Source: a virus
Taxonomy: Duplodnaviria; Heunggongvirae; Uroviricota; Caudoviricetes
Strand: one strand, 5' to 3'
Virus record (IMG/VR): IMGVR_UViG_3300005613_000041
Span: 11,239-75,238 of that record
Length of the DNA stretch: 64,000 nt
Shown here: positions 20,771-56,510 of the stretch, one piece after another
Layout: each line of letters opens with the position of its first letter
Numbering within the stretch: position 1 is the first letter of the stretch
Notes under the pieces: generated by a model
Told to the model about the DNA's origin: nothing
Database searches by the model: none
The model's input: the letters and a program-made list of their open reading frames with translations, nothing else
Made by a program: the position numbers and the translations under genes

Positions 20771-22034
20771 TATATTAGGGTTAACAATAGCAAATACTTC
20801 ATATGGCTTACCATTTAAAAGACCAACTATAATACCATAGTATATGGATTGGACTTTTACGATTGAATAATGAGCTTCTAATTTTTTAGGTCTTTTAGGA
20901 GCATCATTTTTTGGTATAACTTCAGTAACTTTTTCTTTATTTAGATTTGAGATGATGTTATTACGACTACCATCTCTATAGCTTTTTATCTACTACTTTC
21001 ATAATAGTTTGGACTATACCATAATCCTTGTCAGGATTCTTCCATTATAGTCTCTGAACGTCTCGTAATCCATTTATAATCATAACATTCTATTGGACAG
21101 TCTCCAATATAATCAAGAAGTAAAATTAAACCTTTATTTCCTAAATGGTACGCGCCACCTTTTTTATAAGAATAAAACTTTACTTGATTACCAGTAATTT
21201 TTTGAAGTTGTTTTAACACATACTCATTATAATGTTTACAAGATATTTGTCCTCTGTTATTCCAACTTTTACTTTGTTTGGAACTAGAACCATCCCCAAT
21301 ATACCACCAAAGTAGCATAGTAGGTGTTAAATTAATATCAGGTAAAATTTTTCTAAATTGTTTTTGTGTTATCATTATTTCTTTTGGATAAAATAAATTA
21401 TAAATATCCATAAATTCTGGTCTTGTTTCTGTTTGAAAAGTATAAGCATTTACTCCTTTATATATTTCAGAACATTTAATTCCTTCGTTTAAAAAGAAAG
21501 GTATAATATATTCTAAAACTTCTCTATGTTTATCAGTATAAATAAAATGGGGGTATTTGCCTTTTATAGCTAATCTCATCCCACCATCTCCTAAAATCAT
21601 ACCTAATATCATTTCTTTTAAACTATTAGAAATATTAATAGGTTCTTTATAAAAAAAATCTCTTACAGATTCTTTTACATTTCTAATCTTTGTACCAGAT
21701 TTTGCTATTTTATAACGAATCTGTCCAATGTTTTTATTATACTTTTGTGAAAGTTTATTCATACTTTCACCTTGCTTATATTCTTCTATGATTATATCCC
21801 ATAGATTAGGATTTCGCTGCTGATTATCCATTTATACAATTTAAAAAGGTTTAACAATAATATTATACAAAGGTATAACAAAATTATTAAAATTCCAAAT
21901 AAAATTGTATTTATTTTCATTATTTTAAAACATTCACACTTATCATCTCTGATTATGTTGTAGTTAATGAAACTTTAGGAAGTTCCAGCAATTTAGAAAG
22001 TTTTCATCTATATATTACTATATAGAGCCGCCTA
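20771..22034 (-). other. Group I intron 2 of the RNR gene (~1.26 kb) with an embedded LAGLIDADG homing endonuclease gene
   Basis: RNR exon 2 reads ...LKGITVNI then TAG at 22032; the RNR-like frame resumes ~1.25 kb downstream; the same GUUAAC / AAYAUA sequences occur at both candidate junctions; the intron 5' region is homologous to the ATPase-gene intron; boundaries are +/-12 nt. Confidence 0.6.
21031..21831 (-). CDS. LAGLIDADG homing endonuclease (double-motif) with N-terminal HTH-like region, intron-encoded
   Basis: 'LGMILGDGGM' and 'LLWWYIGDGSS' LAGLIDADG motifs; free-standing ORF with its own start inside the RNR intron. Confidence 0.85.
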   Translation of the reverse strand: MDNQQRNPNLWDIIIEEYKQGESMNKLSQKYNKNIGQIRYKIAKSGTKIRNVKESVRDFFYKEPINISNSLKEMILGMILGDGGMRLAIKGKYPHFIYTDKHREVLEYIIPFFLNEGIKCSEIYKGVNAYTFQTETRPEFMDIYNLFYPKEIMITQKQFRKILPDINLTPTMLLWWYIGDGSSSKQSKSWNNRGQISCKHYNEYVLKQLQKITGNQVKFYSYKKGGAYHLGNKGLILLLDYIGDCPIECYDYKWITRRSETIMEES

Positions 22035-23354
22035 TATGTTAACGGTAATACCTTTAAGTTTATAATTCCATGCATCTAGATAGATTCGTGATACAACTTC
22101 TTTTGGTATATCTGATGGAAGATTTATGGTCGAACTTATGGAATGTGATGTAAATTCTTGTAGAATACTTTGCATTTTAATTCTAAACTCCCAATCAATT
22201 TCTTCAGCTTCAACCCAAGGAAGCTCTTTTTTATGAAGTTTGGTAATACTTTCATCATCTGTATCAATACCTTTAACTTTACAATAGTCATAAACTCTTG
22301 GGTGTATAGTACTATATTTTTTAAATTTTTGACCATCTTTGTCTATATAATCATAATCTTCTGTTTTGTCTTCTACTTTAACAGATCTAGTACTAAACAT
22401 AGAATAAATAGGTTCCATTCCACTACTTACACCATGTTCAAGAGACTTACTACCTGTAGGAGCAATTGTACTCCACGATACATGTCTTCTACCGAACTTG
22501 CTCATTCTTTTCCATTGTTCAGGATACTCTGATTCTATAAATTCATAAAATGAATTACCTCCTTGTTCAAGATTAATATCAAATCCTTTAAATGGTCCAA
22601 ATCTGATTGACAAATCAATAGTTGAATCAAGTTCAGCTCTCATTTTAATTTTCATGATAGCTTTAGCATTCATTAATCCATTCTCAGAATCATATCTGAT
22701 GTTAAGAGCTGCTAAAACATCAGCTAATCCCATAATACCTAATCCAATTCTTCTACTATTAACAACATTTCTTCTAATAGTATTCCACAGATTAAATTCT
22801 TCCAGTTCAAATTGTTGTGAAACAGTAATATGTCTAATAATCCTATCAATTGCTTCGATTTCTAGATCAACTAGAATATCCATTAAAATAATGGATTCAT
22901 AAACATATTGATAAAATTTATCACCATCAAATACTGCATTTTCCGTAAAAGGATTTTCCACAAAATTATAAAGATTCATATGACCGAGAATACAGCTAGC
23001 ATACGGTTGAAACCATATCTCACTACAAGGATTACATACTGAACCTTTATACTCTTTGTATACACTATCAGGTGCATAATTATTATGATTGTCACTAAAG
23101 ACAATTCCAGGTTCAGCTACACTATGAGCAGCATCAATGATTTTATCCCATAATACTCTAGCTTTTACTTTTGATGAATATTCATCATTATCACCAAAAT
23201 ACAATTCATAATCTTCATCATTGATTACTGCCTCCATAAAATCATCAGTAATATCAATTGATAAATTAGCACCTGTTAGTTTAGTTAAATCCTTTTTGAC
23301 TTCAATAAATTTCTCAATATCAGGATGATGAATATTAAGAAGTACCATCAACGC
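22035..23354 (-). CDS. Ribonucleotide reductase (class II-like) exon 2
   Basis: Begins 'ALMVLLNIHHPDIEKFI' (RNR HPDI motif); active-site 'VCNPCSEIW'; 'STIAPTGS' and 'TINLP' RNR motifs; ends 'KLKGITV..'; the annotated Met is a TTG artefact; a 5' splice junction is required. Confidence 0.8.
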
Positions 23355-23692
23355 CTAAGGTTTAAATACCTTATTAGACTATATCTTCAGATAAGACTAA
23401 GTTCTTATCCACCTATGCGCTTCCAAACAATGAATTTCACATTGAATGTACTTTACTCGGTTACTCACCATTAACTGTAATGGTTGTCCTTTCAATAGTC
23501 GTTACACTTTCATTAGTATATTCAAAATATAAACCTTGCCTTTTACTTTTTGTAATAGAATTTGGTCATTAATATACTAATGCTTAGCACGGTATTATTA
23601 TATATTCGGCAAATATATAGTTTCCACCGTTAGCCCTTATAAAGGACACCCTATATTTATAGGTTCACATAGTTTTGAGGCACATTTTGTTT
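23355..23692 (-). other. Group I intron 1 of the RNR gene (338 nt, no ORF)
   Basis: Exon 1 ends ...NGRRG (GGU, 5' splice site after U) and exon 2 starts ALMVLL, restoring the conserved RNR 'RRGALM..HPDI' sequence exactly; intron ends in G (omega-G); core has GACUA...UAGUC P7-like pairing. Confidence 0.8.
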
Positions 23693-24223
23693 ACCTCTTC
23701 GTCCATTCTGAGCTACTTCATTTGTAGTACGACTATATCTCTCAGCAAATGAAATTACTCCCGTAGATGTCTTAGCAGCATTGTTTACTGTTGCTCCTTC
23801 TGGTCTTAGTGTTGATAGATTAATACCAACACCACCTCTTCTTTTCATAATATTAGCCAATTCAGCATCTTTCTCGATAATACCAACATAACTATCTCTA
23901 GGAGAGGCTATACCATAACAGTTACTTAGACTACCAATCTGTTTAGTTCCTATTAAAGCTGTAGGACTGCCAGCATAAGTAAAAAGTTTTTCTTTAAATA
24001 TACTACTCAATTGATCGAAAGATAACTCTTTTCTTTTTTGTCCATATTCAGATAAATCATTCTTATCATGAATAACTTCTTTATGTGTTCGTTGACTCAT
24101 AATTCTTATAATTTCAGATACTATTGTATCATATCTATCATAAACAGAATTTTCATCTTTATCTTTATACTTTTTATTCCATATTAATTCTCCGAGAGGA
24201 TTATTATCAAAGTAATTATTCAT
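23693..24223 (-). CDS. Ribonucleotide reductase (class II-like) exon 1 (N-terminal ~177 aa)
   Basis: 'LSNCYGIA' and 'RRGGVGINLSTLRP' resemble the RNR N-terminal Cys and GGG(I/V)Gxx(S)xLR loop; ends with RRG at the splice site. Confidence 0.75.
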
Positions 24224-41636: not shown

Positions 41637-42398
41637 TTATAAGGTATTTATTATAAGTTTTTTTGCTTCATCTATATAATAATCATAATCAATCATCTGT
41701 TTTAAACTTTCCAGATCTATATCAGTTAAGTTATTACAAACGATACAAGTTTTATCAACTTCGAGATATTCTCTTCTCATCTCATTTTTTCCAGATAGAG
41801 GAGGCATGATTTTAGCTAGATAAATACCATTATTTGAAATACAATATCGAGTAACTTTACCTAATTTTTCTATAACTTTTCCATCTTCATCAAGAATCAC
41901 AAACTCATGACTATTATTTTTCTTGACGGCTGATTTAAAATAATCAAAAATGTCATCATGATTTCTTATAAAACTTTCTATATCAACCCCATCTTTATAA
42001 AAAGCTTCAACAGCTTTTGGAACAATCATCATTGAATGATTTTTATGAGGTTCTCTATCATATTCATAAGCACCCTTTTTCTTCAATGAACCATTATCGA
42101 ATATCCCAATATAATTATTGCAATCACGGATATGTAACTCTTCATATTCTGCATATTCCAGTTCCAGATTAGTAAGCTCTTCCCATTTTTTACACACATC
42201 ATCAAATTCATCTTCTTTATTACGAGGAATTCTTACTTCACCACCATCTGTATTCATCATTAATAATTGACATCCTTCGATTTTCAACAACTGTTCAACC
42301 AACATAGTCAACATAAGTTGACCATTCAATGTTATTTGAATAACTGCTTGAGGATCTCTTAATTCACTAAAATTATCATTCATTTTCAGTTTTATTAC
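41637..42398 (-). CDS. Family B DNA polymerase exon 2 (motif C and KxY region)
   Basis: Frame open upstream to ~42416; '...AVIQITLNGQLML...LLMMNTDGGE' (motif C YxDTDS-like) and 'KKKGAYEY' (KxY); the 5' splice boundary is approximate. Confidence 0.65.
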   Translation of the reverse strand, partial: VIKLKMNDNFSELRDPQAVIQITLNGQLMLTMLVEQLLKIEGCQLLMMNTDGGEVRIPRNKEDEFDDVCKKWEELTNLELEYAEYEELHIRDCNNYIGIFDNGSLKKKGAYEYDREPHKNHSMMIVPKAVEAFYKDGVDIESFIRNHDDIFDYFKSAVKKNNSHEFVILDEDGKVIEKLGKVTRYCISNNGIYLAKIMPPLSGKNEMRREYLEVDKTCIVCNNLTDIDLESLKQMIDYDYYIDEAKKLIINTL

Positions 42399-43439
42399 CG
42401 TAATATCATTTAAATATTACTTCTATATGTTTCCATGTAGCTTAGACTATATCATTATCCTATATATTTATATAGGATAGTAGGCGCTCGTGTCTTTATT
42501 ATATTCTACAATTGTAGTTTCAAAAGTTAGTCGTTGCTCTTTCTATAACCATTTAAATTATAGCTTAGATCAGTATTATCATATCAATTGACTTAGACTT
42601 CTACTGAATTCACCTACTTCCTTTATTGTGTTACCACAATAAGGGGCTGTGTATTATATTTAAACTTTCTTAAAAAATAAACCTTTATATGGCTTATTAA
42701 AATTTGAAGACTTATTAATATTTACAGATTGTAACAAATAAGGAGAATAACTTTGTCTTCCATTTGGATTTCTTAAAATCATATGTTGTTTTAAGATAAA
42801 TTCGTCTTGTAAAGATAATTCTTCGATATCTTTAGCACTTCTCCATTCTCCTAAATAATTCATGTTTATATCGAAAACTTGAATATTAGGATTATTATTT
42901 CTCTGAGCATTTATTTGATTTGTTCTATCAGGTTTTTTTCTTTTAGGAACTTTTAAGTGATCTGTAGAAAAATACTTTATACCTTTATTCCAAGGAGTTC
43001 TATTTCTCAAAGTTTCTTTTACATGATCTAATTCACCATTGTCGTATTTTCTCTTCATTGTTAAACGTCTTTTGTTAATAGCTTCTTGAGAAAACTGACA
43101 ACCACCTGTAGCTAACAAATTTATATTATATAAGTTTTCAAAATCTTCTTTGTCAATATATGTTTGTTCAAGTTCTAGAATATTATCATTACAATGTTCT
43201 AATACATTAAACTCAAAATTTTCTTCTCCATATTTATTCCAAGCATATTGAAGATGAGAATTCTTATGTTTATTATTTTTTAATACATTTTTATGATGAT
43301 AAATTCTTTTTTCTAAATCAATACTAGAACCAATATATTTTTTACCATTTATTTTATTTTTTATTTCATAAACACCTTTCATAGTATACCTCCTTTTAAG
43401 AGAATATACTATAAATTAAGTTTAAATACAATTTAAACA
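42399..43439 (-). other. Group I intron in the DNA polymerase gene (~1.04 kb) carrying a GIY-YIG homing endonuclease gene
   Basis: Exon 1 stops 5 codons after motif B 'KLSGNGSYG'; motif C resumes ~1 kb downstream; the proposed junction YG|V follows a U and the intron ends in G; a strong SD (AAAAGGAGG) precedes the embedded HEG. Confidence 0.6.
42660..43382 (-). CDS. GIY-YIG homing endonuclease (I-TevI-like), intron-encoded
   Basis: 'GVYEIKNKINGKKYIGSSIDLEKRIYHH' canonical GIY-YIG motif; free-standing, with its own SD. Confidence 0.85.
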   Translation of the reverse strand: MKGVYEIKNKINGKKYIGSSIDLEKRIYHHKNVLKNNKHKNSHLQYAWNKYGEENFEFNVLEHCNDNILELEQTYIDKEDFENLYNINLLATGGCQFSQEAINKRRLTMKRKYDNGELDHVKETLRNRTPWNKGIKYFSTDHLKVPKRKKPDRTNQINAQRNNNPNIQVFDINMNYLGEWRSAKDIEELSLQDEFILKQHMILRNPNGRQSYSPYLLQSVNINKSSNFNKPYKGLFFKKV

Positions 43440-44648
43440 ACCATAACTACCATTGCCAGATAGTTTTAGAGCTTTATTAAGAACACTACCTTTTGGATAT
43501 TTCGATCTTTCAATTTTAATATCATTCATCGTGGTACAAAATGTAGGTCCAAGATGAAGAGGATAAATATTATTTGTAATCATCATCGACGGATAGTAAC
43601 TTTTAACATCAAAACTTTTAACAATATAATTTTCATTTGTAAAAAAGTTACCGTAAGTAGCTTGGTGAACACCACCAGTACCGTAAGTAATTTGATTACC
43701 TTTAAAATTAATTGTTAATGATTTAATTTCGATTTCAGGATATTCTAGTAAATCTTGATATTTCTCAATTGTTACTTTACGAGGTTTTCGTTTTAGATTT
43801 GATTTTGAAATATCAATAATCGGTAATATTTCTGTTAAGTTTTTATTTGGAATATCAGTAAAAGCACCTTTAGTCTCTTTTATTTCTCTTGTTTTTAACC
43901 AATTTAAAAACTGATTAAGATCAGATGACTCAAAACTGACATATGGAAATATTACATCTTTAAACTTAATGATTTCTCTATTAGTTTGACCAAGCTCATC
44001 CTTCTCTAAAGCAGATTTAAGCTTAGATACCAAAATAGATTCTCCAATTTTAACATCATTGAAATTAGTCATATCTATATTAAATCTTTCACTTAATTCT
44101 TCTCTTAGAGAAATATGTCCTAAACTGTGTTTTCTATAAAATTCATAAGTAGCGAACAAGTCATTCTGATTATAGAAAATGACTTCATCCATCTTATCTA
44201 ACGGTACTATTTCATCATGTTCTATAGGCAAATCTTGGACATTCTTCATTCTCATAAAAAACTCAAGTTGTTTAAGACTTGTCATTTTTGCTTTATTATT
44301 ATAATGATGAATTAGTCTAAGATCTATTTGGGGAATAAGTTGAGGAATACGAGAAGGATATTTACTTCTAACCAAAATGTCACTGTAAGTTTTACATAAA
44401 CCTACAATAGTAGACATTTTGTATTTTTTTGATTGAACTAATGATAAGAAATGATATAATAGAGGATAATCAAACGATATGTTATTAAACCCTATCATTT
44501 GTTTAACATGACGAAGATATTCTACTAACTCATCATATTCAAGCTTTCTTTCTGAAAATTCAAAGTATTTTTCTTCTTGAGATTCTGTTTCAAGAAACCC
44601 AAATAATAAATAGTTTTTAAAAATCTCAATATCATATATTACTTTCAT
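43440..44648 (-). CDS. Family B DNA polymerase exon 1 (3'-5' exonuclease domain, motifs A and B)
   Basis: Exo I 'IYDIEIF'; Exo II '[11 protein letters not shown]'; Exo III '[13 protein letters not shown]'; pol motif A '[11 protein letters not shown]' (DxxSLYPS); motif B 'KLSGNGSYG'. Confidence 0.75.
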
Positions 44649-48625: not shown

Positions 48626-48789
48626 GTCCCGTCGCCTATCGCATCGGGGTCCATCTGCTTGATGTCCTTGATAGCCTCATCGATATCGATGGGCTTAGCC
48701 TGTTCAATGTGACCATACCAGACGGTGGTCTCCCCTTGCCTTTTAACGTACTCAAGCTGAGCTATCAAGATCTCTTTTGCACTTTTCAT
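48604..48789 (-). CDS. Hypothetical protein (61 aa, higher GC)
   Basis: ORF only. Confidence 0.3.
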   Translation of the reverse strand: MKSAKEILIAQLEYVKRQGETTVWYGHIEQAKPIDIDEAIKDIKQMDPDAIGDGTWGLWPE

Positions 48790-48825
48790 GACGTTTTCTT
48801 TTGTTTAAACTATTTGAATATCTTG

Positions 48826-48877
48826 TAGGGTCAGCGGGATTCGAACCCGCACGTCCATTACTGAACACAGGATTTTA
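48826..48877 (-). tRNA. tRNA-Leu(UAA): tRNA-Leu(UAA) 3' exon (anticodon nt 34 onward, long variable arm, T-arm, acceptor)
   Basis: UAAAAUCCUG...GCGGGUUCGAAUCCCGC-UGACCCU-A pairs with the 5' exon acceptor GGGGUCA; reconstituted anticodon loop is CUUAAAA. Confidence 0.75.
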
Positions 48878-49257
48878 CTTACCACTATAGCTTTCGCTAC
48901 CAATAATCAAGCTTACACGCTCTCCTCACCTCAATGGATCGTCTATCCATTTGGCAACCTGTGCCGTCTTGCGCGACAATTATTGTTTGTAGTCTGGACT
49001 ATGCCTTCACCATATTTAATTAGAACTTAGGTGGGGTGATTATAGTCTCTGCACGTTCTTAATCTATGACATTAGCCAACTACTTCATACACACCTGTAT
49101 GTTTCGAGCCTGTTAATTCAGGCTTTCAATTAAGCTTCGCTCAAGGTTAGGGGCATATATTTACAGATTGCTACAACTTTTGATTGTAGTCATTGCTACC
49201 CGTTCCTTGAATTTACACCCTGCTAATACATTGTTTCCAATGTAAAGACCCATTAAA
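48878..49257 (-). other. Group I intron (380 nt) in the anticodon loop of tRNA-Leu(UAA), at the canonical position between nt 33/34 and 35
   Basis: 5' exon ends ...AGGACU(U); intron ends in G before UAAAAUCC; interior has GACUA/UAGUC P7-like motifs; 380 nt with no ORF. Confidence 0.7.
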
Positions 49258-49291
49258 AAGTCCTAGGCGTCTACCAGTTCCGCCATGACCC
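49258..49291 (-). tRNA. tRNA-Leu(UAA): tRNA-Leu(UAA) 5' exon (acceptor, Leu-type D-arm, anticodon-stem 5' half)
   Basis: GGGGUCA-UG-GCGGAACUGGUAGACGC-C-UAGGA-CU(U); D-arm GCGGAAYUGGUAGACGC is diagnostic of tRNA-Leu. Confidence 0.75.
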
Positions 49292-49350
49292 CATAAAATA
49301 GAACAAGTAATATAATTACTTGTTCTAAATAAATCAAAGCTTTTTTAAAG

Positions 49351-50151
49351 TTATTTTGATATCATAACAGGAGTATTACCATCAGTAATAATAATTTTAT
49401 CATTATCATTGATAGCATCAATCCATTGAGATGTCAATATCTGAGGTGTCAAACCTTGTGATCTAATTCTATTAGTTTCACGTTCAATCAACGCTTTTTG
49501 TTGTTCCATACGAGCAATCTCCAAATCATTTTCAGCTTTTCTGGCATTCTGAATTGATTCATTTCGTGCTTCAACAGCCTTTTTCATAGAATCAGGAGGA
49601 TTAAGACTTGAAGTTAGAGATAAAAGAACAAATCCTTTTTCTTCAAATTCTTCTTTCAATCTCTTTTCAACTTTTTCTTCATATCCTTGAAGATTTGACA
49701 TCAATTCATCAGTCGTATAAGATCTGGCAATCTCCCTATAAGCGTTAAAAACTACTACATTAAGAATCTTTAGTTCAACCTCATCTAGAGAAATGTGATT
49801 TTCATTACCTGAGATATCCTTAAAATTATACACAATGTGTTTTCCTTTACTTCTTATAGGAGAATATTGATATCTTGGTGAGATTGAAAATTCACCAGCA
49901 TCTTTTGCCAAAATATCTCCATTATCAAATCCTCCAGAAGTTTCCCACATAGGAACCTGATATAGTTTTTCTCCTGTGAATGGATTCAAAGGTACAAGTC
50001 CTTTTACTTCTACTAGGTCTTCAATACCATTTTTACCCCAATTAATCATCTTGACAGCTTCATGATTGGGTTCAACACGTGAACATCCTGTCAAGTTAAT
50101 CATACCAATCATCATGATTGTCAACAGTGCAATACTACGAATAATTTTCAT
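49351..50151 (-). CDS. SPFH/band-7 (prohibitin-like) domain lipoprotein
   Basis: Signal peptide with lipobox 'INLTGC'; central/C-terminal region with SPFH-like segment and Glu/Lys/Arg-rich coiled coil ('ARNESIQNARKAENDLEIARMEQQKALIERE'). Confidence 0.45.
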   Translation of the reverse strand: MKIIRSIALLTIMMIGMINLTGCSRVEPNHEAVKMINWGKNGIEDLVEVKGLVPLNPFTGEKLYQVPMWETSGGFDNGDILAKDAGEFSISPRYQYSPIRSKGKHIVYNFKDISGNENHISLDEVELKILNVVVFNAYREIARSYTTDELMSNLQGYEEKVEKRLKEEFEEKGFVLLSLTSSLNPPDSMKKAVEARNESIQNARKAENDLEIARMEQQKALIERETNRIRSQGLTPQILTSQWIDAINDNDKIIITDGNTPVMISK

Positions 50152-50372: not shown

Positions 50373-50858
50373 TTATGACTTGAAAATAAATTCATTCCAA
50401 GAAATCTTACTTTTTACAACGAACAAAGGCTTTTTCGGTTCTTTAAGCAGTCTCATACCTACTTCTTCTGGTGTTCTATTACCTTTACGAGAGTTACAAG
50501 AATGACAAGCTGCTACCATATTTTCCCATGTATTAAGTCCTCCTTTTGACACAGGTACAATATGATCAATAGTTAAATGTTTATCGCTTCCACAATACTG
50601 ACAAAAGCCATCTCTGATTAAGACAGCTTTTTTAGTTGGTATCAATGGTTTATAAGGTACTCGAACAAAAAAATTTAACCTTATTACATCAGGATAAGGA
50701 AAGATGCTTTGTTTAGAATGAATGAGTTTATTTTCTACTTCTTTAATAATAGTAGCTTTACCATTAAATATTAATAACATTGCTTTTTGAACTGATATTA
50801 CATTTAATGGCAAATAACTACTATTTAGAAGTAATACTTCTTTTTGCTTGTTTAACAT
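50373..50858 (-). CDS. HNH endonuclease
   Basis: 'CQYCGSDKHLTIDHIVPVSKGGLNTWENMVAACHSCNSRKG' HNH motif with Zn-binding Cys pairs. Confidence 0.8.
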   Translation of the reverse strand: MLNKQKEVLLLNSSYLPLNVISVQKAMLLIFNGKATIIKEVENKLIHSKQSIFPYPDVIRLNFFVRVPYKPLIPTKKAVLIRDGFCQYCGSDKHLTIDHIVPVSKGGLNTWENMVAACHSCNSRKGNRTPEEVGMRLLKEPKKPLFVVKSKISWNEFIFKS

Positions 50859-52341: not shown

Positions 52342-52420
52342 AAGGGCTGACAGGGTTCGAACCTGCATACTCCAATTACTCGATTAATGACTGCTTAGAA
52401 GGCAGTTGAGATACAGCCCC
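52342..52420 (-). tRNA. Atypical tRNA-like gene (79 nt): good acceptor and T-arm, UCU anticodon-like hairpin, no canonical D-arm, 23-nt insert before the T-arm
   Basis: GGGGCUG/CAGCCCU acceptor; GCAGGUUCGAACCCUGU T-arm; ACUGC-CUUCUAA-GCAGU hairpin; possible pseudo-tRNA or tRNA-like RNA. Confidence 0.3.
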
Positions 52421-56419: not shown

Positions 56420-56510
56420 AGGGCAGGATCGGATTTGAACCAATAATAGATGTCTGCTGTAAGTAATTTTATAGAACAAATTACTTTCTTTACCATTTGA
56501 ATACCTGCCC
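56420..56510 (-). tRNA. Atypical tRNA-like gene (91 nt): canonical acceptor, D-arm and T-arm; 8-bp hairpin (UCU-containing loop) plus ~20-nt insert in place of a normal anticodon/variable region
   Basis: GGGCAGG/CCUGCCC acceptor; D-arm UUCAAAUGGUAAAGAA; T-arm AUUGGUUCAAAUCCGAU; internal AGUAAUUU-GUUCUAUA-AAAUUACU; contains UUACAGCAGAC, resembling the family motif. Confidence 0.35.

What the first reader, a model, noticed from the sequence alone, without database searches (positions are those of the whole stretch)
48826..49291. tRNA-Leu(UAA) interrupted by a 380-nt group I intron at the canonical anticodon-loop position
The minus strand has a perfect tRNA-Leu 5' half (GGGGUCA acceptor, Leu-type D-arm GCGGAACUGGUAGACGC, anticodon-stem 5' half UAGGA-CU). 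The matching 3' half lies ~380 nt downstream (UAAAAUCCUG, long variable arm, GCGGGUUCGAAUCCCGC, UGACCCU-A). The acceptor strands pair 7/7. Splicing gives anticodon loop CUUAAAA (anticodon UAA). The intervening sequence ends in G and contains GACUA/UAGUC P7-like elements. The insertion site (between U33/U34 and A35) is that of the ancient cyanobacterial/plastid tRNA-Leu(UAA) intron. I am not aware of such an intron in a phage-encoded tRNA.
Basis: seen in the sequence. Interest (0 to 1): 0.8.

Follow-up and report, generated by a model that had tools for sequence, protein, structure and literature searches.

The report
Self-splicing intron in phage tRNA-Leu gene
A phage gene for the leucine tRNA that reads the phage's most-used leucine codon is interrupted by a 381-base self-splicing (group I) RNA intron of the bacterial tRNA type; dozens of similar phage cases sit unremarked in public data, although a 2014 review says phage tRNA genes have none.

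Summary
On the minus strand, exon 1 (49292-49259) and exon 2 (48877-48826) join into a canonical 86-nt tRNA-Leu(UAA). The 381 nt between them (49258-48878) are a group I intron. Rfam Intron_gpI gives 47 bits (E 9e-11), just under its 50-bit gathering score. A covariance model built only from relatives gives 74-96 bits (E 1e-18 to 1e-23).

The intron has the U·G wobble at the 5' splice site, a terminal G, P1-P9, and 67 of 68 family-invariant bases. It has no ORF. It resembles the IC3-type bacterial tRNA introns.

- The insertion is between U33 and U34, not at the classical cyanobacterial/plastid U34/A35 site. This 33/34 Leu type is itself widespread: about 27 bacterial and about 22 viral loci were found here.
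- It is not unique to this phage. IMG/VR holds dozens of intron-split tRNAs inside phage tRNA arrays. GenBank phages carry them too (Agrobacterium phage Atu_ph07, a Microcoleus phage, a 735-kb phage).

No paper I could search describes this, and a 2014 review says none exist.

Verdict: a new member of a known kind, in an under-reported setting, within an intron-rich phage. Self-splicing is inferred, not shown.

The parts
49259..49292 (-). Exon 1 of tRNA-Leu(UAA), 34 nt: acceptor 5' strand, D arm, anticodon-stem 5' strand, C32 and U33. The last six bases, AGGACU, are also the 5' strand of P1.
48878..49258 (-). Group I intron, 381 nt, without an ORF. It starts UUUUAAUGGGUCUU and ends GUGGUAAG, with the terminal (omega) G at 48878.
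   Evidence: RF00028 47 bits; R1 74 and 95.7 bits; no ORF longer than 32 aa.
48826..48877 (-). Exon 2 of tRNA-Leu(UAA), 52 nt: U34 A35 A36, the rest of the anticodon arm, long variable arm, T arm, acceptor 3' strand and discriminator A. CCA is not encoded.
   Evidence: The spliced product is colinear with the uninterrupted tRNA-Leu(UAA) of crAss-like phage cr272_1.
49245..49251 (-). Internal guide sequence GGGUCUU (P1 3' strand). G49250 pairs with U33 (49259) as the U·G wobble that marks the 5' splice site.
   Evidence: The U·G pair is invariant in 10 of 10 family seed sequences.
49227..49244 (-). P2 hairpin UACAUUG-GAAA-CAAUGUA, with a GAAA tetraloop as in the family.
   Evidence: (8 of 9 P2 pairs covary).
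49141..49220 (-). P3 5' strand GGGUG (49220-49216). J3/4. P4 UCAAGG (49210-49205) paired with CCUUGA (49146-49141). P5 (49201-49197 with 49155-49151), carrying an inserted hairpin at 49189-49171.
   Evidence: P4 keeps pairing through three pairs changed on both sides relative to the family's UCGGUG/CGCCGA.
49053..49140 (-). P6/P6a (GCG..CUUAAU with AUUAAG..CGU), with a lineage-specific insertion of about 64 nt that forms two hairpins (49124-49107 and 49101-49086).
   Evidence: (the insertion is shown as *[64-68]*).
48997..49052 (-). Catalytic core: J6/7, P7 5' strand GACUA (49047-49043), J7/3 UAAU, P3' CACCC (49038-49034), P8 (49033-49008), J8/7 AAGGCA, and P7 3' strand UAGUC (49001-48997).
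   Evidence: 67 of 68 family-invariant columns are kept.
48881..48993 (-). P9 (ACUAC 48993-48989 with GUGGU 48885-48881). It encloses an inserted domain closed by CAAUAAU/AUUAUUG (48985-48979 with 48907-48901). It also holds the family-conserved hairpin UAGC-GAAA-GCUA (48899-48888).
   Evidence: The one invariant column that differs (C to U in P9) still pairs, as U·G.
49299..49327 (-). Terminator-like hairpin of the upstream SPFH gene, ending 6 nt before the tRNA 5' end. It implies that the tRNA is made by read-through plus processing, or from an unrecognised promoter.
   Evidence: consensus scan only.

Best explanation
This is a phage-encoded tRNA-Leu(UAA) gene interrupted between U33 and U34 by an ORF-less, 381-nt group I intron of the bacterial tRNA-intron (IC3-like) family.

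Inferred mechanism:
- The precursor is transcribed with the intron.
- The intron folds into P1-P9. The guide sequence GGGUCUU pairs with the exon end AGGACU and places U33 in a U·G wobble.
- A free guanosine bound in P7 attacks after U33.
- The terminal G (48878) then takes the same site, and the freed 3'-OH of U33 attacks after it. This joins the exons and restores the anticodon loop CUUAAAA.
- RNase P and the host CCA-adding enzyme finish the tRNA.

The tRNA matters to the phage. UUA is its commonest leucine codon, and this is the only tRNA-Leu(UAA) gene in the window, so splicing competence should be under selection.

Shown here: the anatomy, family membership, covariation of the family structure, and conservation of core bases. 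Inferred only: catalysis in vivo or in vitro, and the processing steps.
For: - Exons and product: ARAGORN -i gives tRNA-Leu(taa) with i(35,381). The spliced sequence is a canonical 86-nt tRNA, colinear with an intronless phage tRNA-Leu(UAA).
- Ribozyme: RF00028 matches the full model at 47 bits, E 9.4e-11. Model R1, built from 10 relatives without this sequence, scores 74 bits, E 7.6e-19, across the whole window and 95.7 bits in a whole-model match.
- Family structure: in 10 relatives, 93.9% of cells are paired. 32 of 56 pairs change on both sides, against 12-20 such pairs (29-40% of cells paired) in slid controls, and 0 of 500 shuffles reach the observed values.
- This copy: it fits every helix, with compensatory pairs in P4, P9 and P9a, and keeps 67 of 68 invariant columns.
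- Position 33/34: terminal G followed by U; 28 of 35 relatives are unambiguous.
- Demand for the tRNA: UUA is 45.7% of Leu codons, 40 per 1000 codons. No other tRNA-Leu(UAA) gene is in the window.
Against: - The Rfam score is 3 bits under the curated gathering score.
- No splicing data exist.
- The minimum-free-energy z-score of the intron alone is only -1.95.
- The P10 pairing seen in this copy (UUUUA with UAAAA) is not conserved in relatives, so it may be an A/U-richness accident.
- Large lineage-specific insertions in P5, P6 and P9 have no homologues and could slow folding.
- No promoter for the gene was identified.
- The IC3 assignment rests on architecture and on my recollection of the Azoarcus core sequence. 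It was not tested with subgroup models.
Confidence: 0.88

Rival explanations
1. One reading: the intron sits at the classical cyanobacterial/plastid site between U34 and A35, and is a direct orthologue of that ancient intron.
For: The DNA is formally ambiguous, because the intron starts with U and exon 2 starts with U. The core is clearly related to classical 34/35 Leu introns, for example L052 at 78% core identity.
Against: A 34/35 intron would end in U, not G. The guide sequence GGGUC is the one used by 33/34 introns, whereas classical ones use ..GAGC/GAGU. In 28 of 35 relatives with the same 3' junction, the first intron base is C or A, which fixes 33/34.
Confidence: 0.04
2. The intron is a decayed relic that no longer splices, so the gene is a tRNA pseudogene and the host tRNA-Leu(UAA) serves instead.
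For: The Rfam score is below gathering. There are about 180 nt of unshared peripheral insertions. There is no homing endonuclease gene. No close relative is available to show purifying selection.
Against: 67 of 68 invariant core positions are intact, and the one change keeps its pair. All helices are intact, with compensatory changes. The exons form a flawless cloverleaf. UUA is the phage's top Leu codon.
Confidence: 0.07
3. The ORF-less intron is currently mobile. The free-standing HNH endonuclease encoded 1.1 kb upstream (50373-50858) would cut intronless tRNA-Leu alleles in co-infecting phages ('collaborative homing').
For: The ORF matches HNH domains at 1e-16. Homologues lie within a few hundred bases of intron-split tRNAs in L033 and L064. 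The genome is rich in homing endonucleases.
Against: In other relatives the homologue is 3-10 kb away (L044, L077) or absent. No intron-plus/intron-minus pair of closely related phages was found. I also recall, without having checked it here, that this small HNH type is common in phages for unrelated roles.
Confidence: 0.12
4. The locus is bacterial DNA (a host tRNA gene or a mis-assembly), not phage DNA.
For: The same intron type occurs in bacterial genomes of Armatimonadota, Saprospirales and others.
Against: The gene is flanked on both sides, on the same strand, by phage-type genes. These include an SPFH protein 49% identical to that of Cellulophaga phages phi17:2/phi4:1, DNA polymerase, primase, helicases, ribonucleotide reductase and homing endonucleases. 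A tRNA array of 23-24 genes (22 by ARAGORN, 23 by Rfam) lies 3 kb away. GC is 29.5% throughout.
Confidence: 0.02

Closest known systems
[quoted passage not shown]
   Same: Same host gene and anticodon. Same compact core without P5abc or P7.1/P7.2. No ORF. The exon anticodon stem flanks the intron. The J8/7-P7 and P9-end motifs are closely similar to classical-type copies found here.
   Different: The insertion is one nucleotide upstream (U33/U34 rather than U34/A35; one search gives the classical site). The guide sequence differs (GGGUC). It is 381 nt, against 183-278 nt for the ORF-less classical-site copies seen here, with extra hairpins in P5, P6 and P9. It lies in a phage genome.
tRNA-Leu(UAA) 33/34 introns of bacteria and metagenomic phages (family defined here; possibly one of the 17 new types of Williams 2020, which I could not verify because that table is an image)
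   Same: Same splice site, same P1 (GGACU with GGGUC), same 3' end GUGGUAAG|UAAAAUCC, and same core (R1 95.7 bits).
   Different: No member is close: best core identity is 78%. The peripheral insertions are not shared.
tRNA(CAU) 33/34 introns (cyanobacterial 'fMet.2Ug' type; viral examples L014, L027, L064)
   Same: Same anticodon-loop position and the same GGGUC guide sequence. Core identity 73-74%.
   Different: Different tRNA species. The viral examples are shorter (about 190-210 nt).
Azoarcus tRNA-Ile(CAU) IC3 intron
   Same: As I recall its sequence (from memory, not tested here), it shares stretches such as AGAGACUA...CACCCACCUAAGG...GGUGAAGGCAUAGUCC, plus GAAA tetraloops in L2 and L9.
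   Different: Inserted 3' of the anticodon ('Ile2.5Ug'). About 205 nt as I recall. Different P9 end. Bacterial chromosome.
Classical phage group I introns (T4 td, nrdB, nrdD; SPO1, Twort; crAss-like Zeta-group introns)
   Same: Self-splicing group I introns carried by phage genomes. This window holds such introns too, in the DNA polymerase gene and probably in the ribonucleotide reductase gene.
   Different: Those interrupt protein-coding genes and often carry endonuclease genes. By my recollection they are mostly subgroup IA with P7.1/P7.2. This one interrupts a tRNA, has no ORF, and has only 4 nt between P7 and P3'.

Membership tests
Group I intron | P1 helix with a U·G wobble at the 5' splice site | tested here: met
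   AGGACU|U pairs with GGGUCUU, and U33 (49259) pairs with G49250. The wobble is invariant in the family.
Group I intron | Terminal guanosine (omega G) at the 3' end | tested here: met
   ...GUGGUAAG|UAAAAUCC, with the G at 48878.
Group I intron | Conserved core P3-P4-P5-P6 and P7-P3'-P8-P7', with the P3/P7 pseudoknot | tested here: met
   RF00028 matches the full model at 47 bits, E 9.4e-11, but below the gathering score of 50. R1 gives 74 and 95.7 bits. All helices were mapped.
Group I intron | Guanosine-dependent self-splicing activity | not testable with these tools
   Needs in vitro transcription and splicing, or RNA from infected cells.
Bacterial tRNA-intron family (IC3-like) | Sits in the anticodon loop, and the ligated exons give a canonical tRNA | tested here: met
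   The spliced sequence is an 86-nt tRNA-Leu(UAA), colinear with an intronless homologue.
Bacterial tRNA-intron family (IC3-like) | Compact architecture: no P5abc domain, no P7.1/P7.2, GAAA tetraloops in L2 and L9 | tested here: met
   J7/3 is 4 nt. L2 and the P9 hairpin loop are GAAA. However, P5, P6 and P9 carry lineage-specific hairpins.
Bacterial tRNA-intron family (IC3-like) | Assignment to subgroup IC3 by the subgroup covariance models (GISSD / Nawrocki models) | not tested
   Those models are not available here. The assignment rests on homology to family members found in tRNA genes.
Classical cyanobacterial/plastid tRNA-Leu(UAA) intron | Insertion between U34 and A35 (CUU/intron/AAAA) | tested here: not met
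   The insertion is CU/intron/UAAAA, i.e. 33/34, by the omega-G rule, the guide sequence and 28 of 35 unambiguous relatives. The classical site is given.
Mobile (homing) group I intron | Intron-encoded homing endonuclease | tested here: not met
   The longest ORF overlapping the intron is 32 aa.
Mobile (homing) group I intron | Intron-plus and intron-minus alleles in closely related genomes | tested here: inconclusive
   No close relative of this phage was found in IMG/VR, JGI metagenomes or GenBank phages.

The most novel reading that the evidence does not exclude
This intron may be one instance of a so far undescribed, largely phage-borne radiation of IC3-type tRNA introns. On this reading the introns move between anticodon-loop positions (33/34, 34/35) and between tRNA species (Leu, Met/Ile-CAU, Arg and others) inside phage tRNA arrays. 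Phages would then be plausible vectors for the patchy distribution of tRNA introns among bacterial phyla.

Hints:
- Its nearest core relatives are all viral.
- Several phage contigs carry two split tRNAs.
- IMG/VR yields about as many Leu-33/34 copies as 185,579 bacterial and archaeal species genomes.
Probability: 0.35. Interest if true: 0.6.

Novelty: new member of a known kind. Interest (0 to 1): 0.42.

Why it matters
- Annotation. Standard pipelines miss such genes. ARAGORN's default mode and Rfam at gathering threshold both missed this one. Phage tRNA repertoires are therefore undercounted: here the tRNA for the phage's commonest Leu codon would be scored as absent. In Agrobacterium phage Atu_ph07 a 'hypothetical protein' is annotated over a split tRNA-Leu.
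- The record. It contradicts the statement in the 2014 review (PMC3984707) that phage introns are confined to protein genes despite the many phage tRNA genes.
- Evolution. If the phage-borne clade holds up, phages become candidate carriers of tRNA introns between bacterial phyla.
- Ribozyme tools. It adds a naturally extended IC3 ribozyme, with three inserted peripheral domains.

None of this changes the known mechanism.

Tried and rejected
- Whole-window Rfam scans, at gathering and at E-value threshold, missed both this intron and a 77-bit one. The cause is the speed filters, not absence (against 4, 61).
- Looking for the phage or close relatives found nothing useful. Tried: megablast and blastn against GenBank phages; the SPFH-protein neighbourhood in IMG/VR and JGI metagenomes; the exact-protein index; an exact 24-mer of exon 1 in metagenomes; an exact 20-mer of P7-P3' in IMG/VR. 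So intron presence/absence polymorphism could not be tested.
I used a 147-position P3-P9 core model instead.
- Short exact patterns give many chance matches: about 55 of 83 genome hits and about 8 of 30 viral hits were not introns. Only hits verified by ARAGORN or the covariance model were counted.
- The supplementary table of PMC13011429 that would list Leu 33/34 cases is truncated in the held copy. Williams' table is an image.
- The link between the HNH endonuclease and the intron is inconclusive.
- P10 pairing was considered as a splice-site determinant and rejected as not conserved in relatives.
- A possible third intron in the ribonucleotide reductase gene at 23352-23656 scores only 15 bits.

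Full report
**1. The observation**

Read on the minus strand, positions 49292-49259 are GGGGUCAUGGCGGAACUGGUAGACGCCUAGGACU. This is the 5' part of a class-II tRNA up to U33. Positions 48877-48826 are UAAAAUCCUG, followed by a long variable arm, GCGGGUUCGAAUCCCGC, and UGACCCU-A.

ARAGORN misses the gene in default mode. With introns allowed, it calls tRNA-Leu(taa) with a 381-nt intron. The joined exons fold as a canonical 86-nt tRNA-Leu(UAA) with anticodon loop CUUAAAA.

The top acceptor pair is a G·U wobble. CCA is not encoded.

**2. Is the intervening sequence a group I intron?**

At Rfam's gathering threshold nothing is reported, and the whole-window E-value scan also loses it to the speed filters. 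A scan of 48700-49450 alone gives RF00028 Intron_gpI at 47.0 bits against a gathering score of 50. The E-value is 9.4e-11 and the match covers the whole model, 1-253.

To get independent evidence I collected relatives.
- The 16-mer TGAAGGCATAGTCCAG (J8/7-P7') occurs in 62 IMG/VR loci. About 40 of these lie inside intron-split tRNA genes.
- The 3' junction AGTGGTAWG|TAAAATCC occurs in 30 IMG/VR and 83 GTDB-genome loci.
- After checks with ARAGORN and a covariance model, about 22 viral and about 27 bacterial loci are genuine. The rest are chance matches, as expected for patterns this short.

Ten short relatives, not including the window, give a textbook group I fold with RNAalifold. With P3 added as a pseudoknot:
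- 93.9% of cells are paired.
- 32 of 56 pairs change on both sides.
- 0 of 500 shuffles reach the observed values.
- Slid controls give 29-40% paired.

A 147-position core model (R1) built from those ten sequences scores the window's intron at 74 bits, E 7.6e-19, with filters off over all 64 kb. With default filters, which matched the whole model, it scores 95.7 bits.

**3. Anatomy of this copy**

- P1: exon AGGACU plus the first intron base U pair with GGGUCUU (49251-49245). U33·G49250 is the wobble.
- P2: 49244-49227, with a GAAA loop.
- P3: GGGUG (49220-49216) with CACCC (49038-49034).
- P4: UCAAGG with CCUUGA. Three pairs are changed on both sides relative to the family's UCGGUG/CGCCGA.
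- P5: GGGUA with UGCCC, carrying an inserted hairpin.
- P6/P6a: carries an insertion of about 64 nt with two hairpins.
- P7: GACUA with UAGUC.
- J7/3 is only UAAU, so there is no P7.1/P7.2.
- P8: 49033-49008.
- P9: ACUAC with GUGGU. It encloses an inserted domain and the conserved hairpin UAGC-GAAA-GCUA.
- The intron then ends AAG, with the terminal G at 48878.

Of the 68 columns invariant in the ten relatives, 67 are identical here. The one change (C to U in P9) still pairs. The longest ORF overlapping the intron is 32 aa.

The architecture and the core motifs are those of the bacterial tRNA-intron family, which the literature classes as IC3. I could not run subgroup models.

**4. Position**

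The terminal G is followed by U, so U34 belongs to exon 2 and the insertion is U33/U34. The classical cyanobacterial/plastid intron is CUU/a...g/AAAA, i.e. U34/A35. PMC13011429 likewise gives 34/35 for tRNA-Leu and 33/34 for tRNA-fMet.

In this copy the DNA alone is ambiguous, because the intron also begins with U. In 28 of 35 relatives with the same 3' junction, however, the intron begins with C or A. The GGGUC guide sequence is shared with 33/34 introns of tRNA(CAU). Classical-site copies use a different guide.

The 'canonical position' claim is therefore off by one nucleotide. That difference marks a distinct and widespread type. In bacteria I found it mainly in Armatimonadota and Saprospirales/Bacteroidota MAGs, and also in Kuenenia, Rhodothermales, Desulfobacterales and gammaproteobacterial MAGs.

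**5. Setting**

The window is phage DNA with 29.5% GC.
- It encodes giant ORFs of 4027 and 1467 aa, DNA polymerase, primase, helicases, ribonucleotide reductase, dUTPase and thymidylate synthase.
- It holds 23-24 tRNA genes (22 by ARAGORN, 23 by Rfam) on the same strand at 52.3-61.5 kb.
- The SPFH protein just upstream of the split gene is 49% identical to that of Cellulophaga phages phi17:2/phi4:1, and about 31% identical to crAss-like phage proteins. This suggests a Bacteroidota host.
- No close relative exists in GenBank phages, IMG/VR or JGI metagenomes.

The genome is intron-rich.
- The DNA polymerase gene is split. ORF 43422-44648 matches profile positions 54-415, and ORF 41637-42383 matches 414-648. 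Between them lies an intron with a GIY-YIG ORF and a ribozyme core that scores 77 bits against RF00028.
- The ribonucleotide reductase large subunit is in at least three pieces, with a LAGLIDADG ORF and a weak intron hit.

UUA is the commonest Leu codon (45.7% of Leu codons, 40 per 1000). No other tRNA-Leu(UAA) gene is in the window, so the spliced tRNA is probably needed.

**6. Is it unprecedented in phages?**

[quoted passage not shown] Nine full-text searches found no later paper describing a group I intron in a phage tRNA gene.

The sequence databases tell a different story.
- IMG/VR contigs of 60-364 kb carry such genes inside tRNA arrays and next to terminase, ligase, primase, helicase or thymidylate synthase genes.
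- Some contigs carry two split tRNAs.
- Among GenBank phages, Agrobacterium jumbo phage Atu_ph07 has an unannotated tRNA-Leu(UAA) with a 278-nt intron at the classical site, overlapped by a 'hypothetical protein'.
- Microcoleus phage My-WqHQDG has an annotated 286-nt tRNA-Arg(CCU).
- The 735-kb phage LR756501 has a split tRNA-Leu(UAA).

In a crude neighbour-joining tree of 121 core positions, the window's intron groups with viral introns at 73-78% identity. These viral neighbours sit in different tRNAs and positions. Bacterial copies are more distant, at 54-68%. Composition bias is not excluded and the tree has no support values.

**7. Verdict**

The locus is a genuine, apparently intact group I intron of the bacterial tRNA type in a phage tRNA-Leu(UAA) gene. 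It sits at 33/34 rather than the classical 34/35.

It is a new member of a known kind. The phage setting is under-reported rather than unique. Self-splicing and any mobility remain to be shown.

Noticed in passing
window 41637-44648 (minus strand): The DNA polymerase gene is split by an intron of about 1 kb. ORF 43422-44648 matches phrog_1252 positions 54-415, and ORF 41637-42383 matches 414-648. Between them lie a GIY-YIG endonuclease ORF (42660-43382) and a group I core at 42423-42654 (RF00028 77.2 bits). The whole-window gathering scan missed this intron.
   Followed up: partly
window 20990-24223 (minus strand): The ribonucleotide reductase large subunit is in at least three pieces. ORF 23657-24223 matches profile positions 202-358, and ORF 22032-23351 matches 357-769. 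A LAGLIDADG endonuclease ORF lies at 21031-21831, next to a weak group I hit at 20990-21124 (26 bits) whose P7/J8-7 motifs resemble the tRNA intron's. The 300-nt gap at 23352-23656 gave only 15 bits.
   Followed up: partly
window 50373-50858 (minus strand): A free-standing HNH endonuclease gene lies 1.1 kb upstream of the split tRNA-Leu. Homologues lie next to intron-split tRNAs in L033 (12232-12663) and L064 (4005-4133), but far away in L044 and L077. The link to the intron is undecided.
   Followed up: partly
window 59121-59234 and 59639-61351 (minus strand): A Y-RNA-like match (YrlA RF02553, 33 bits, below gathering) lies inside the tRNA array, 405 nt from a 570-aa phrog_850 'RNA-binding protein'. 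This may be a Ro60-type protein (my guess from the Y-RNA pairing, not tested). L083 has the same protein family directly beside its intron-split tRNA-Leu.
   Followed up: no
window 52342-52420 and 56420-56510 (minus strand): Two further tRNA-like genes are found only by the Rfam tRNA model (34.5 and 42.5 bits), not by ARAGORN. The second is 91 nt long.
   Followed up: no
L010 4756-5306 (IMGVR_UViG_3300038673_000510): The relative with the best summed BLAST score among the first 62 IMG/VR loci has a 387-nt intron at 33/34 in a tRNA with anticodon UAA but a short (class I) variable arm. An intronless class-II tRNA-Leu(UAA) follows immediately, and an amber-suppressor-like tRNA(CUA) is nearby. 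One possibility is that the anticodon was converted during ectopic intron insertion.
   Followed up: no
L172 1245-1606 (Agrobacterium phage Atu_ph07, NC_042013, about 112.8-113.3 kb): A cultured jumbo phage carries an unannotated tRNA-Leu(UAA) with a 278-nt group I intron at the classical 34/35 site and an encoded CCA. RefSeq annotates 'hypothetical protein' gp154 across its 3' part.
   Followed up: partly
L086, L078, L033, L063, L085 (IMG/VR contigs): L086, L078, L033 and L063 each hold two family-model (R1) intron hits; ARAGORN places those of L086, L033 and L063 in two split tRNAs (for example Arg(UCU) plus Leu(UAA) in L033, Leu(UAA) plus Ile(UAU) in L063). L085 has one R1 hit plus a second split tRNA called only by ARAGORN. 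ARAGORN's isotype calls for split genes are often shifted and need the U(-1)/omega-G rule.
   Followed up: partly
window 49299-49327 (minus strand): A 13-bp terminator-like hairpin followed by a T-run ends 6 nt before the mature 5' end of the tRNA. How the tRNA is transcribed is therefore unclear.
   Followed up: no
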